Source of the DNA: the human T2T-CHM13v2.0 reference genome, Homo sapiens
Reading direction: 5' to 3' (one strand)
Length of the DNA stretch: 64,000 bases
Assembly: GCF_009914755.1 (NCBI RefSeq)
Contig: NC_060946.1
The notes beneath the pieces are model-generated. The model was given only the letters and a program-made list of their open reading frames with translations, was not told the DNA's origin and did no database searches. This document shows, one piece after another, positions 8,644-13,825 of this stretch. How positions within the stretch are numbered: the first letter of the stretch is position 1; each line of letters starts with the position of its first letter. The position numbers were made by a program, and so were the translations under genes.

Positions 8644-8836
8644 CAGCCGGCTGGATGCGGGAGGCTGGCGTGGAAGCCACGGGCTCGGCGGCACTGCGGA
8701 GCCGGTTGGCAGTGGCCCCCGTGGGTGGGCCAGGGGGCAGGGCTCGGGTCGCGGACCCCCGTAGCTGCCCCATCCTCTCCTCGCGTTCGTGTTCTCGCCG
8801 CTCCCGGTCCACATCCTCGGGATTCCGGGCTGCACC
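8644..8836 (-). CDS. CSNK1E: CSNK1E exon 8 ([64 protein letters not shown]); autoinhibitory tail
   Basis: gcag|GGT ... GCTG|gtgagc; 193 nt; matches ORF 8576..8860. Confidence 0.98.
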
Positions 8837-9749: not shown

Positions 9750-11052
9750 CTGTGGAGGAGAGAGCTCTGGGCTGAGTTGGGGGCCTGCTCATGGGCACAG
9801 GGTGTGGTTCCTGCAACCCATGTCTCTCCCAGGAGACTGGCCAAGAGGTGGGGGTGGGCCCTGTCTTTAAGCAACTCCAGGAAGTAGTGGCTAGGACCAG
9901 AATGATCCCTGAATCTTAGTGAGGCACCAAGGCCCAGAGAGGCCTTGTGACCTGCCCGGGGTTGCACAGCTCAGGGCAGAGCTAGGGTCTGAACCCAGGC
10001 CTCTGCCACCTAGTCCCACTCTGCTCTCTGCACCCCAAGAGGTCACTGTTCAGAGTCTTGCCTTAGAACACTCTAGAAGATGCATCTTCCCATCCTCCCA
10101 CCCAGAAGCCTCTCAGGCAGGCCTGGGACCACCGGGGCTCTAACTCCTGACCTCCGGTCCTCACCCTGGGCTCCCACTCGGTTGCAGGCTGGCCAACAGT
10201 GACTCAGCCAGAGCCACAGCAAAGCCTGGGGAGGAACACGAGCTGTGGCACCTCCGTGCCGAACCTTCTGCGGGCAGAGTCACATCAACCCTGTGAGGCA
10301 GGTCAATCTCATTTCCATGCTTGGGATACAGAGGCTGAGTGACTCACTCCAAGGTGTGGAGCCCTGCAGCCAGCAGCCAAGCAGAGGGCTGGAGCCCCTG
10401 CCCTTTGTGAGCCCAGCAGGCTCAGGCCATTGCCAGCCCCGAGGCAAGAAGTGGGCGACTCTCCATGGTCCCATCCAACCCATAGGACGCAAGAAACACA
10501 CAGCAGGGAGCTCTCTTGGCCTTTACTGCCCATAGAAAACATAAAAGGTCAGCAAAGTCACACGAGCATCCACCCGTCATCATATGGACCTCTGTCCTTG
10601 GCTGTGTTGAATTCCTTCCCGGCCAGCTGACTGGACCTCGGAACACAGTGGCTGTATGTGCTGAGAGTGGCTTCCAGGCCCCAGGGATCCACAGATCCCA
10701 GCACCCCGGTGCAGCCAACAACACAGGGTGTCCTGTCTACTGTTGGGTAGCATGGGAAGGGCCTGGCCTCAGGGTGAAGGTTCCCATTGCATGTTTTCCA
10801 GGTGCTTCTGCCAGGGGACTGCTGGAGGTGGTTCAGCTCACTACAGTGGCCGTGGCATTGAGTCAGAGATTGGCAAAGGATAAGGCTGTGGGTGCCTCTG
10901 CCCAGCTTCTAACTCCAGGGCCTGCCTCAAGAGGGACTTCCAGGAAGGCGGTCAGACCAGCAGCAGTGGGTGGAGAGGTGCTCCTGGCCTGGTTGGAAAA
11001 GAGATCTTGCTGGCTAGACAGTCTTGTGAGACTCCATAAGGGAGGAACCTAG

Positions 11053-11532
<480 letters not shown>

Positions 11533-11920
11533 TGACTATCTCGATAAGAAAGTGCCCAGTGCCCAATGCCCTGTGGTGGAAAGAGCTGGTCCCAGGTGCT
11601 CAAGGCCATGGGCCCCATTTGGAGCCAGAAGGTCTAGGGTGAAGTCAGAGAAGACGTCCCCTGCCCATATCCCATTTCCAGCCTTGCTGAAAAGGGCAAC
11701 AGAGGCCTCTCCCTGAGGTCCCTAGCCTGCGAGACCCCCATTCTCTGCCTGACCTCTGTGTTACTCCTTAGTGAACAAGAAACCCAGAGAGAAGAGAAGC
11801 CCAAGACCAATGTGCCGACCTTGGCTTCCAGGAGAACAGAGCCTTGGTCCTAACCATCTAGCAGGGTGGCTGAGGGCCCTGCCATGAAAGAGGCACACCA
11901 GGATGAAGCAAGAGGAGGTG

Positions 11921-11926
11921 TTTAAT
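11921..11926 (-). terminator. Candidate intronic polyA signal ATTAAA for the alternative terminal exon
   Basis: Plus-strand tttaat about 260 nt after the alternative stop. Confidence 0.45.
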
Positions 11927-12185
11927 GAGTTCTGGTTCAACACAGAGGCCGCCAACGGGGTCTAGCTATGAGTCTGTCCTGGGACCCGTTCCCACCAGGC
12001 CCCTTGTGGGCAGTGGCCACCATCCCTCCCTCAGGCTGTCCTGGCCCTCAAGGACCCCATGGCAGGGCCTTTTCCACCATGGCCTCCACTGTGCTGCCAT
12101 CTCTTGGGAACAGGGGGTCATCCCATCCTCCCAAGAAACACTTCCTCAGGCCTGGCCCCGATGGGCTCAGGCACACCTGGCGACA

Positions 12186-12300
12186 TCAGAAATGGGGCCC
12201 TGGAGTCCAGACCACAGGCCAGTAGTTTTGGGGGGACAGCTCCTCCACCTCCTCCACCGGCCTATCTGGGGGGCTCTGGGTGCCCAGGGGAGCCGGGCAC
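12186..12300 (-). CDS. CSNK1E: Candidate alternative terminal exon, coding part (WCPAPLGTQSPPDRPVEEVEELSPQNYWPVVWTPGPHF*)
   Basis: Strong acceptor gctttttgtccctttcag|G; in frame with the 12396-12505 exon; TGA at 12188-12186; ATTAAA at 11926-11921. Confidence 0.7.
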
Positions 12301-12395
12301 CTGAAAGGGACAAAAAGCACAGCTGAGGCTCAGCCTCTTGCGCTCACTGGTCAAGTGGCAAATTTTGGAAAAGCCAGACCTCAGAGGATCCTTAC

Positions 12396-12505
12396 CAGTA
12401 CGTGGGTGAGTACGTGGGCCCAGCACAGGGACAGGGGCGGGGACAGAAAGGTCCCTTCGCTGTCATGGGGCTGTCACGGGGCTGAGCCTGGCTCGAGGAA
12501 GCCCC
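12396..12505 (-). CDS. CSNK1E: Candidate alternative CSNK1E exon in intron 7 (GASSSQAQPRDSPMTAKGPFCPRPCPCAGPTYSPTY)
   Basis: Acceptor tcttgtttcacatctcttctggaaaag|GGG; donor CTG|GTAAGG; 110 nt, open in phase 0 after exon 7. Confidence 0.7.
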
Positions 12506-13087
12506 CTTTTCCAGAAGAGATGTGAAACAAGACATACAATTTCACAGATTCCAGAGCTCTGGGTACGGCCGGCCAATGCTGCTCCCCACCCAACCCCACC
12601 CCTGGGACTCTTAAAAGAGGGAAACAGAACAACTGCCTAGCCAGACCCAGGGGCCCATGACCAAGAAGAAAGCAAGCACCATGACTGGGTCCAGGCTGGC
12701 CCGAGGGGCCATGGTGCAGGTAGCCACCTGGGATGTGCAGAACAGGAGCAGCAGGACGGTGTAGGCAGCAATCAGGGCAGCAGGGGGCGCCGCCAGCACC
12801 ACCCATGCCCTGCTGCGGGCACCCAGGAGGGACCCCAGGTGAAGCCAGATCCTCCTTGTTCCGACGGGAGACAGCGCCCTGCCTGGGCCCTGCTGCCCAT
12901 GGTGGCACAAGCTGTCAGCACGGATGAGGCTGGAGGGCTCTGGGACCCCAGTGAGGTCAACCACACTGTCCAGCTCGTACCTCCCGTCTGTCGGGAGCCC
13001 CTCCCGCCACCAGCTCACTCTGGCCCTCTGAGTCAGGGCCTTCCCCATCCAGTCCCCCAAGCCCGCCTTGGCCTCCAGGTGACTCAC

Positions 13088-13236
13088 GAATTTCAGCATG
13101 TTCCAGTCAAAGACGTAGTCATAGGAGAAGCCCTGCCGGTGGAAGAGGTTGCGGAAGAGCTGACGTAGGTAAGAGTAGTCGGGCTTGTCGTCAAACCGCA
13201 GGGAGCGGCAGAAGTTGAGGTATGTTGAGAATTCGG
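13088..13236 (-). CDS. CSNK1E: CSNK1E exon 7 ([50 protein letters not shown]); end of kinase domain
   Basis: ccag|CCGAA ... TTC|gtgagt; 149 nt; ends in phase 0 at codon 295. Confidence 0.99.
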
Positions 13237-13825
13237 CTGGAGGGTGTTGCAGAGGATAGAGAAGGCCACTGTGAGGCCCACGCTCCCAGACCCCCTGCAG
13301 CCAGCACTGTCCTAGCCACCCACTGTCCCTAGATACTTCCAATCTGTGAGAGGCAAGAAAAGGAGGCAACAGAGCCATGGCCTTCCCTATCCTACCGTGA
13401 TGAAAGCCTAGCCTGCCCGTGAGCAGAGCCTCTGCTGCTTTCAGAGCAAGGGAAGACCTGCGAACAGTGGCCAGGAGCCTCTGCCAGGTAGCCGGATCCA
13501 GGAGCCATCCATGCCCACAGCTCTTCCGCTGCCCTCGCCAAGCACCCTGGGGCCCACAGATCAATCGTTGCCATAAATTCAAAGGACTGCAAGAGCCTGA
13601 CGGGACCTTCTAACACAACCTAAGCAAGAAGAGGAAAACTTCCAATTCCTCCTCAAAAACACTGGGGAGAGGGCCCTTGGGAGATGAGGCAGGAATGTAG
13701 GCTGGGAAGCAACAGGTGTAACAGCCAGGACAGGGAAACCGGGCCTTCTGGCTGTGCCAAGGAGTGGCAAAGAGCCAGGGATTACTGCTCAGGTGCCAAG
13801 GGCTGTGGGGCAGCCCAGTGTGGGC

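What the first reader, a model, noticed from the sequence alone, without database searches (positions are those of the whole stretch)
11921..12505. Two-exon alternative terminus with its own polyA signal (369-aa CK1e)
Seen: a 110-nt exon (aaaag|GGG ... CTG|GTAAGG), a 95-nt intron and a strong acceptor at 12300 join in frame to give GASSSQAQPRDSPMTAKGPFCPRPCPCAGPTYSPTYWCPAPLGTQSPPDRPVEEVEELSPQNYWPVVWTPGPHF*, followed by ATTAAA at 11926-11921. The tail has a CPRPCPC cluster, SP/TP sites and an acidic EEVEELS patch resembling an acid-primed CK1 site. It would also replace the whole canonical 3'UTR. The six-frame track misses it because it is split by splicing. It resembles mammalian Csnk1e isoform tails I recall, so it may already be annotated.
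Basis: partly seen in the sequence, partly recalled or inferred. Interest (0 to 1): 0.7.

Follow-up and report, generated by a model that had tools for sequence, protein, structure and literature searches.

The report
Conserved alternative tail exons of CSNK1E
Two small exons inside an intron of the human clock-kinase gene CSNK1E could swap the kinase's whole regulatory tail for a different one, and the same tail is predicted in many other placental mammals, so it looks real but already catalogued and functionally unstudied.

Summary
On the minus strand there is a 110-nt exon (12505-12396), a 95-nt intron and a second exon starting at 12300. The stop is at 12188-12186 and ATTAAA at 11926-11921.

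The open frame alone is not unusual: 10.9% of intron positions stay open for 74 codons or more. Comparison with other species decides it. Protein searches found 12 casein-kinase-I clusters (44 member sequences, 11 named placental taxa from primates to tenrec) that carry this tail. Eight carry it cleanly, directly after the same junction, and the Cebus record is also 369 aa. Identity to the human tail is 72-93%. That is above a neutral simulation and above the flanking intron (58-62%).

Best reading: a placental-conserved alternative last-exon module that replaces the whole autoinhibitory tail. Human use of the junctions and of ATTAAA was not testable here. A published human intronic poly(A) site maps about 1.4 kb further downstream. 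Already catalogued in orthologues; function uncharacterised.

The parts
13088..13236 (-). Constitutive CSNK1E exon whose donor (TTC|gtgagt) feeds either the canonical tail exon (8644-8836) or the alternative module. It ends in phase 0 after residue 295 (...NMLKF).
   Evidence: Hub annotation. (885 nt = 295 codons). By the rough matrix its donor scores -0.1, the lowest of the 9 annotated donors scored.
12396..12505 (-). Alternative exon A, 110 nt, encoding 36 full codons plus 2 bases. It has a weak AAG acceptor and a strong donor, CTG|gtaagg.
   Evidence: The same peptide follows ...NMLKF in 8 clean orthologous isoform records. Galemys shows 26 of 34 residues identical to human, against 58% in the flanking intron.
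12301..12395 (-). 95-nt intron between exons A and B (gtaagg...ctttcag).
   Evidence: In the unnamed ORF P0001 the equivalent stretch is read through in another frame and enters exon B in frame, unlike in human. So a frame-shifting length difference separates the two sequences somewhere between the exon A region and exon B (inference).
12186..12300 (-). Coding part of alternative terminal exon B: 1 base plus 37 codons plus the TGA stop at 12188-12186. It holds the best-conserved parts of the tail, namely CPAPLGT, the acidic EEVEE patch and NYWPVVW.
   Evidence: Its acceptor is the top-scoring AG of the intron. Camel shows 32 of 37 residues and Galemys 25 of 29 residues identical to human. The camel model P0003 splices into the same acceptor from a different donor.
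11886..12185 (-). Putative short 3'UTR with ATTAAA at 11926-11921, a CA at 11905-11904 and a GT/T-rich stretch at 11900-11886.
   Evidence: Read from the sequence only. Use as a cleavage site is not shown.
10490..10527 (-). Alternative distal poly(A) site candidate: AGTAAA at 10527-10522 followed by tgtgtgtttcttg. The published site chr22:38296209 (hg38) maps to about 10512-10514.
   Evidence: The mapping uses hg38 gene coordinates that I recalled, so it is approximate.
12506..12609 (-). Possible 5' extension of exon A through a stronger upstream acceptor (ctcttttaag|AGT, first exon base 12609). In the phase-0 frame it reaches a stop at 12465-12463, giving a 48-aa tail with the stop 67 nt before the A/B junction.
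   Evidence: third-best acceptor of the intron, score 7.0; the ORF at 12463..12636. The unnamed spliced ORF P0008 carries sequence upstream of exon A contiguous with it.

Best explanation
The region is a placental-conserved alternative last-exon module inside the CSNK1E intron that separates the catalytic-domain exons from the tail exons. When the donor of exon 13088-13236 is joined to exon A (12505-12396), and exon A to exon B (from 12300), translation ends in exon B. The message is then cleaved inside the intron, either at ATTAAA/11904 or at a more distal site near 10512.

The product keeps residues 1-295, which is the whole crystallised catalytic domain. It loses the entire canonical C-terminal tail together with every mapped inhibitory autophosphorylation site. 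In its place it gains a 72-76-residue tail that is proline-rich and predicted to be unstructured. The conserved core of that tail is an acidic EEVEE patch followed by an aromatic NYWPxVW motif.

Shown here: the sequence anatomy, the orthologous predicted isoforms, and conservation of the two exons above that of the flanking intron. Inferred: that human cells use the junctions, that the protein is made, and that loss of the autoinhibitory tail gives a de-repressed or differently targeted kinase.
For: Anatomy.

Orthologues: three searches returned 14 clusters with this tail (10 hits among 52 candidates; 9 among 23; 12 among 8000 scored).
- 12 are casein-kinase-I proteins, holding 44 member sequences under 11 named placental taxa. 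These cover Primates, Rodentia, Perissodactyla, Artiodactyla, Chiroptera, Eulipotyphla and Afrotheria (lineages checked for two species).
- 8 of these (P0002, P0004, P0005, P0006, P0007, P0009, P0010, P0013) have exon A plus exon B directly after ...NMLKF.
- 5 of the 12 carry NCBI 'isoform X' names.

Conservation:
- Identity to the human tail is 68/74 and 69/74 in the two monkeys, and 52-59 of 72 in the non-primates.
- A substitution-only neutral simulation at 0.3-0.5 substitutions per site gives a mean of 38-55% and a maximum of 59-77% in 3000 runs. The divergence values are recalled.
- Internal control: the intron between exon 7 and exon A, read in the retained-intron frame, is 58% (Galemys) and 62% (camel) identical. 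Exon A is 76% identical, and exon B is 86% identical in both species.
- Length differences inside the tail are whole codons: 2 residues in exon A, and 2-3 residues in the VEE repeat.

Transcript-level hints:
- The unnamed ORF P0008, from a 1423-base contig, runs from exon A into exon B without the intron.
- Mouse Ensembl holds two support-level-1 protein-coding Csnk1e isoforms with identical kinase domains and different C-terminal domains. One of them is selectively expressed in choroid plexus (bioRxiv 10.1101/2025.08.27.672533, passages).
- Human CSNK1E is a published example of intronic polyadenylation (PMC11629677, passages; PMC12626307).

Mechanism:
- The solved CK1 epsilon chains 4hni and 4hok cover residues 1-294.
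- The eight proposed autophosphorylation sites are Ser-323 to Ser-408, all beyond residue 295 (PMC4032983, passage).
- The stop lies in the last exon, so the message should escape nonsense-mediated decay (established rule).
Against: - No human junction read, 3'-end read or peptide was seen here.
- Human RefSeq lists no such exon (hub table).
- All orthologous records are computational gene models. Such models exist only where the frame is open, so the sample is biased towards intact frames.
- One record is frame-shifted inside exon B (yak, P0012), and one is shifted at the last two codons (Tenrec, P0010).
- The VEE length changes sit in a GAG/GTG repeat that would slip in whole codons anyway.
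- Without orthologous DNA I could not separate protein-level from nucleotide-level constraint, so no dN/dS or PhyloCSF test was done.
- The flanking intron is itself fairly conserved and overlaps a RefSeq enhancer feature (12621-13821).
- The exon A acceptor is weak in human.
- The published human poly(A) site maps to about 10512, not to the ATTAAA.
- PMC11629677 treats the CSNK1E intronic transcripts as unspliced, nuclear-retained and degraded. It does not name the intron in the passages read.
- The tail has no Pfam family and no predicted structure: mean pLDDT 62, pTM 0.13.
- No hit was found outside placentals. This is weak evidence.
Confidence: 0.6

Rival explanations
1. The two exons are real and conserved, but they work at the RNA level. 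They would act as a regulated 'off-ramp', in which splicing into the intron and early polyadenylation lower the output of full-length CK1 epsilon. The transcripts would be retained or degraded, and the open frame would be incidental or yield little protein.
For: - CSNK1E is shown as an example of intronic-polyadenylation transcripts that rise after ZFC3H1 depletion, so they are normally removed in the nucleus (PMC11629677).
- An open frame of this length is common in this GC-rich intron: 10.9% of positions.
- The tail has no family and no predicted fold.
- The yak record is frame-shifted.
- The donor of the upstream exon is the weakest of the 9 annotated donors scored, which fits a kinetic competition.
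Against: - The frame is intact over both exons in 8 clean records from four superorder-level groups.
- Amino-acid identity is 72-82% at distances where the simulation never exceeded 77%.
- The stop lies in the terminal exon, so the spliced form is not a nonsense-mediated-decay target.
- The PAXT pathway described acts on transcripts with an unspliced 5' splice site, which the spliced two-exon form lacks.
- The mouse isoform with an alternative C-terminus is annotated as protein-coding at support level 1 and has a cell-type-specific pattern.
Confidence: 0.28
2. In human the only product from this intron is an unspliced composite terminal exon. Exon 13088-13236 would read straight through its donor into the intron and end at an intronic poly(A) site. 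The two-exon pattern would then be unused in human.
For: - Published CSNK1E intronic-polyadenylation transcripts are described as keeping an intact 5' splice site.
- The retained-intron frame stays open for 158 codons.
- The unnamed ORF P0001 reads through the A/B intron unspliced.
- Human RefSeq lacks the exons.
Against: - All splice signals, the frame, the stop and a poly(A) hexamer are intact in human.
- The donor at 12395 and the acceptor at 12300 are the best-scoring sites of the whole 4251-nt intron.
- Two monkeys have the isoform predicted with 92-93% identical tails.
- Both kinds of transcript can coexist.
Confidence: 0.08
3. It is a chance pattern that gene-prediction pipelines have propagated between species by protein homology, with no biological use anywhere.
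For: - Every record is a computational model, and some are plainly odd: Galemys at 713 aa, and the Cricetulus 468-aa cassette model.
- The open frame is not significant on its own.
Against: - Conservation is specific to the exons and exceeds that of the flanking intron.
- Both splice junctions are conserved.
- Two short ORFs from unnamed contigs are independent of the kinase-gene models, and one of them is spliced.
- The mouse isoform was imaged, though its identity with this tail is not shown.
Confidence: 0.04

Closest known systems
Predicted 'casein kinase I isoform X2/X3/X4/X9' records of other mammals (Cebus imitator 369 aa, Chlorocebus sabaeus 371, Erinaceus europaeus 310, Myotis daubentonii 370, Tenrec ecaudatus 386), plus the Equus, Cricetulus and Bos records
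   Same: They have the same junction after ...NMLKF and the same two-part tail, 72-93% identical to the human translation. The Cebus record also has the same total length.
   Different: They are computational models from other species. Human RefSeq has no counterpart (hub table). I could not see whether a human sequence sits inside the 90%-identity clusters, because the members are not listed.
Mouse Csnk1e alternative protein-coding isoform (Ensembl Csnk1e-203 and its partner), imaged in brain
   Same: The authors describe identical kinase domains and a different C-terminal domain, with selective use in choroid plexus (bioRxiv 10.1101/2025.08.27.672533, passages).
   Different: The passages do not give the tail sequence, so identity with this tail is an inference and not a result.
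CK1 delta splice isoforms delta1/delta2 (CSNK1D)
   Same: [quoted passage not shown]
   Different: In that case only the extreme end differs, 'beyond amino acid 399' (PMC4032983). Here the whole tail from residue 296 is replaced and the message ends inside an intron.
Rat CK1 epsilon splice forms (Takano et al. 2000 FEBS Lett; Takano et al. 2004 Neuroreport, 'rat casein kinase 1epsilon-3')
   Same: The titles show that a distinct rat CK1 epsilon form '-3' was cloned and assayed for expression, localisation and activity (reference lists only).
   Different: Neither paper is held. Whether epsilon-3 carries this tail is unknown to me. My memory that it has an altered C-terminus is recall only.
Intronic polyadenylation transcripts with an intact 5' splice site (PAXT/ZFC3H1 targets)
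   Same: CSNK1E is a named example, and the transcripts end inside an intron (PMC11629677).
   Different: That class is unspliced at the upstream donor. The module described here is spliced twice and has no retained 5' splice site.

Membership tests
Spliced alternative last exon (intronic terminal-exon isoform) | An acceptor site inside a host-gene intron that can be joined from the upstream constitutive donor | tested here: met
   AG acceptors are present at 12505 (weak) and 12300 (best of 323 AG sites), with the GT donor at 12395 the best of 213. The matrix is built from recalled frequencies.
Spliced alternative last exon (intronic terminal-exon isoform) | An in-frame ORF that stops within the terminal exon | tested here: met
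   Entry is in phase 0 after 295 codons, followed by 74 codons and TGA at 12188-12186 in exon B.
Spliced alternative last exon (intronic terminal-exon isoform) | A poly(A) signal with a downstream GU/U-rich element after the stop | tested here: met
   ATTAAA at 11926-11921 is followed by a GT/T-rich stretch at 11900-11886. AGTAAA at 10527-10522 is followed by a GT-rich run. This is sequence evidence only.
Spliced alternative last exon (intronic terminal-exon isoform) | Junction reads and 3'-end reads in the organism itself | not testable with these tools
   No human RNA data are held. The literature gives an intronic poly(A) site at hg38 chr22:38296209 and names CSNK1E as a source of such transcripts.
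Orthologous CK1 epsilon alternative-tail isoform (as predicted in other mammals) | The same junction and a homologous tail across both exons | tested here: met
   8 clean records have the tail directly after ...NMLKF, with 52-69 of 72-74 residues identical to human. 32 columns are invariant among 8 non-human tails.
CK1 delta1/delta2-type tail isoforms | Isoforms share most of the tail and differ only at the extreme C-terminus | tested here: not met
   The divergence starts at residue 296, immediately after the catalytic domain. In CK1 delta it starts beyond residue 399 (PMC4032983).
   The EELS serine is present in human only, 1 of 11 tails. The acidic patch itself is present in 11 of 11.
PPxY (WW-domain-binding) motif, considered for the tail | PPxY conserved among orthologues | tested here: not met
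   Present in 4 of 11 tails and absent in human. The motif definition is recalled.
Unspliced intronic-polyadenylation transcript with intact 5' splice site | Continuity of exon 13088-13236 into the intron up to the poly(A) site | not testable with these tools
   The retained-intron frame is open for 158 codons. The paper does not name the intron in the passages read.
Rat CK1 epsilon-3 | The tail sequence of the cloned rat form | not tested
   The papers are not held. Only the titles were seen.

The most novel reading that the evidence does not exclude
The module encodes a functional CK1 epsilon isoform found so far only in placental mammals. In it the whole autoinhibitory phospho-tail is exchanged for a disordered tail whose conserved acidic patch and aromatic NYWPxVW motif bind a partner, or bind the kinase's own anion-binding sites. 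The result would be a kinase free of the usual autophosphorylation brake and used in particular tissues, for example the choroid-plexus clock. This isoform is absent from human RefSeq. No paper in the searched library contains either of the two tail peptide strings I searched for.
Probability: 0.35. Interest if true: 0.65.

Novelty: already known. Interest (0 to 1): 0.4.

Why it matters
CK1 epsilon and delta set the pace of the circadian clock and act in Wnt signalling, and their C-terminal tails are their main brake. For CK1 delta, a splice choice affecting only the last residues changes clock behaviour. An isoform of CK1 epsilon that drops the whole tail would therefore affect experiments: antibodies and tags placed on the canonical C-terminus would miss it, while knock-downs and inhibitors would still hit it.

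The practical point for annotation is that human RefSeq lacks a module that is intact in the human sequence and is predicted in at least 11 other placental taxa. The practical point for biology is that its conserved motifs are the acidic patch and NYWPxVW. The serine and cysteine features that first caught the eye are not conserved.

Tried and rejected
The IPScan site tables and Supplementary Figure S7 of PMC9794997, which shows which vertebrates splice CKI epsilon alternatively, were therefore not seen, and both may bear on the claim.
- The Takano 2000 and 2004 papers are not held.

Searches and tests that gave nothing:
- The first protein search was too short at 37 aa. I repeated it with the whole stop-to-stop ORF of 47 aa.
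- Pfam found no family for either exon peptide at E up to 1.
- AlphaFold2 on the 8-tail alignment gave no secondary structure, with pLDDT 62 and pTM 0.13.
- The exhaustive profile search of 1.84 billion representatives returned only the two unnamed ORFs already known, plus a weak hit (E 4.7e-5, 7 stretches) to the tandem-repeat protein P0015, which I regard as spurious. Full isoforms would be hidden there inside canonical CK1 clusters.
- A self-BLAST of 11850-12650 against the rest of the window found no other copy at E up to 0.1, so there is no sign of a repeat family within the window. No repeat library was available.

Literature:
- Papers containing NYWPVVW or CPAPLGTQ: none.
- Reviews name no CK1 epsilon protein isoform. 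One gives 416 aa as the only length.
- One search was uninformative, because my setting allowed hits without the gene name.
- Searches were irrelevant.

Readings considered and dropped:
- A conserved acid-primed serine, a conserved Cys cluster and a conserved PPxY motif.
- An internal cassette made of exon A plus the first 49 nt of exon B spliced on to the canonical tail, as in the Cricetulus model P0011. Its donor GAG|gtggag departs from the consensus at +4 and +5. I judged this by eye and did not score it.
- Skipping exon A, which gives only a 12-residue tail.

Full report
**1. Observation**

- The annotated coding sequence up to exon 13088-13236 is 885 nt. The exon therefore ends in phase 0 after residue 295 (...NMLKF).
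- Exon A is 12505-12396, 110 nt, with acceptor ctggaaaag|GGG and donor CTG|gtaagg.
- A 95-nt intron follows.
- Exon B starts at 12300 behind tccctttcag.
- ATTAAA at 11926-11921 is the first poly(A)-type hexamer after the stop. No AATAAA exists between the stop and canonical exon 8.
- A CA lies 17 nt behind the hexamer, followed by a GT/T-rich stretch.

**2. Is it more than chance?**

Within the human sequence alone, only partly.
- The intron is GC-rich, 52-67% in 300-nt windows.
- 436 of 4009 sense-frame positions (10.9%) stay open for 74 codons or more.
- The retained-intron frame itself stays open for 158 codons.
- By a rough weight matrix built from recalled human frequencies, the donor at 12395 is the best of 213 GT sites and the acceptor at 12300 the best of 323 AG sites in the 4251-nt intron.
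- The exon A acceptor is weak, with 43 of 323 sites scoring at least as high.
- A stronger acceptor at 12609 would extend exon A but runs into a stop at 12465-12463.

**3. Relatives**

Searching the exon B ORF by reference against 5.8 billion proteins gave 10 hits among 52 candidates. A search with the tail region of one hit gave 9 among 23. A profile of eight tails gave 12 among the 8000 candidates scored. Together this makes 14 clusters.

Twelve clusters are casein-kinase-I proteins, holding 44 member sequences. Their representatives are named for Cebus imitator, Chlorocebus sabaeus, Equus przewalskii, Cricetulus griseus (two records), Bos indicus x taurus, Bos mutus grunniens, Camelus dromedarius, Myotis daubentonii, Tenrec ecaudatus, Erinaceus europaeus and Galemys pyrenaicus.
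- Eight records carry exon A plus exon B directly after ...NMLKF. The Cebus record is 369 aa, like the human prediction.
- The camel model enters the same exon B acceptor from a donor inside the retained intron.
- The second Cricetulus model and the Galemys model are odd constructions.
- The yak model is frame-shifted inside exon B.
- The Tenrec frame shifts at the last two codons.

Two further clusters are short ORFs from unnamed contigs. P0001 reads through the A/B intron. P0008 joins exon A to exon B without the intron but carries upstream intron sequence. If the same unspliced ORF caller made both, P0008 comes from spliced RNA; this is an inference.

Tenrec is an afrotherian and Erinaceus a laurasiatherian, so the module spans the placental tree. 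Nothing outside placentals was found. This is weak evidence, because of candidate caps and 50% clustering.

**4. Strength of conservation**

- Identity to the human tail is 68/74 (Cebus), 69/74 (Chlorocebus), 59/72 (Equus), 59/72 (Cricetulus), 58/72 (P0008), 56/72 (Bos hybrid), 54/72 (Myotis), 52/72 (Tenrec) and 44/71 (the frame-shifted yak).
- A substitution-only simulation on the human exons gives mean identities of 55%, 46% and 38% at 0.3, 0.4 and 0.5 substitutions per site. The maxima over 3000 runs are 77%, 66% and 59%. That these divergences fit human versus non-primate placentals is recalled, not computed.
- For the two monkeys the observed values lie only in the upper tail of the simulation.
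- As an internal control, the intron between exon 7 and exon A is 58% identical in Galemys and 62% in camel, read in the frame that two models happen to translate. Exon A is 76% identical (Galemys), and exon B is 86% identical in both species.
- Length differences within the tail are whole codons, but the VEE changes sit in a trinucleotide-type repeat.
- I had no orthologous DNA, so protein-level and nucleotide-level constraint cannot be separated. Gene models also exist only where frames are open.

**5. What is conserved in the tail**

Among 11 tails:
- the acidic patch is present in all 11;
- the aromatic motif (N/R)YWP(V/M)VW is present in all 10 complete tails, and its start is present in the partial Galemys tail;
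- CPxPCPC is present in 5;
- PPxY is present in 4, not in human;

Thirty-two columns are invariant among eight non-human tails. Neither exon peptide matches a Pfam family. AlphaFold2 on the tail alignment gives no secondary structure, with pLDDT 62 and pTM 0.13, which fits a disordered tail.

**6. Mechanism**

- The catalytic-domain constructs of CK1 epsilon in the Protein Data Bank (4hni, 4hok) match residues 1-294. The isoform therefore keeps the whole domain.
[quoted passage not shown] All lie in the part that is lost.
- I therefore infer a kinase without the usual autophosphorylation brake, carrying a new interaction tail.
- A further, purely speculative idea is that the acidic patch mimics a phosphorylated tail. 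The one tool that could have probed this was unavailable.
- Because the stop is in the last exon, the spliced message should not be a nonsense-mediated-decay target (established rule).

**7. Literature**

- Two CK1 reviews name splice forms for alpha and delta but no epsilon protein isoform (passages). A third says that epsilon variants exist but lists 416 aa only.
[quoted passage not shown] Its Supplementary Figure S7 was not seen.
[quoted passage not shown] Only Csnk1e-203 was substantially expressed in choroid plexus (passages). The tail sequence is not given.
- For human, PMC11629677 shows CSNK1E as an example of intronic-polyadenylation transcripts that rise after ZFC3H1 depletion (passages). 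The intron is not named.
- PMC12626307 shows a site at chr22:38296209 in hg38, drawn from PolyA_DB or 3'-end-seq sites (section 13 and passages).
- Using hg38 gene coordinates that I recalled, that site maps to window position 10512-10514. This is 8-10 nt behind AGTAAA 10527-10522 and just before a GT-rich run.
- Rat 'casein kinase 1epsilon-3' (Takano 2004) and the rat cloning paper (Takano 2000) are known to me by title only and are not held.
- No paper in the library contains the tail motifs NYWPVVW or CPAPLGTQ.

**8. Verdict**

The pattern is real, and it is best read as a placental-conserved alternative last-exon module that swaps the regulatory tail of CK1 epsilon (confidence 0.6).
- The main rival, at 0.28, is that the same conserved exons serve RNA-level down-regulation and little or no protein is made.
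- Use only as an unspliced intronic transcript in human (0.08) and a propagated annotation artefact (0.04) are less likely.
- The isoform is already catalogued as predicted proteins in many mammals, and probably in mouse Ensembl, so it is not new as a thing. Per the hub table it is missing from human RefSeq.
- No paper I could search or read characterises it. This rests on the ten library searches, none of which found the tail described.
- Interest is moderate.

Noticed in passing
window 12611-13609 (minus strand): The frame of exon 13088-13236 stays open for 158 codons into the retained intron. The camel and Galemys gene models translate the equivalent stretch, with 62% and 58% identity to human. 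This stretch overlaps the RefSeq enhancer feature 12621-13821.
   Followed up: partly
window 13080-13090 (minus strand): The donor of exon 13088-13236 (TTC|gtgagtca) scores lowest of the 9 annotated CSNK1E donors scored by the rough matrix, at -0.1 against 2.6-6.9 for the others. A weak donor just before an intron with internal splice and poly(A) sites fits a kinetic competition.
   Followed up: no
window 12240-12262 (minus strand): The acidic patch is encoded by a GAG/GTG repeat (gtggaggaggtggaggag). Its length varies between species by 2-3 codons, as VEE units.
   Followed up: partly
window 11398-11408 and downstream (minus strand): A second ATTAAA, overlapping AATGAA, sits shortly before sequence that looks like the start of an Alu element (ggccaggcctggtggctcatgcc). 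The Alu identification is by eye and from recall.
   Followed up: no
P0011 (Cricetulus griseus, 468 aa): This gene model uses exon A plus the first part of exon B as an in-frame internal cassette (53 residues in human coordinates) ahead of the canonical tail. The equivalent human donor would be GAG|gtggag inside exon B.
   Followed up: partly
P0012 (Bos mutus grunniens, 410 aa): The yak record leaves and re-enters the tail frame inside exon B and runs past the stop, whereas the Bos hybrid record is in frame. This could be an assembly error or a real disruption.
   Followed up: no
P0015 (450 aa, unnamed): A seven-fold tandem-repeat protein weakly matched the middle of the tail profile (E 4.7e-5). 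It is probably a chance match to a proline-rich repeat.
   Followed up: no
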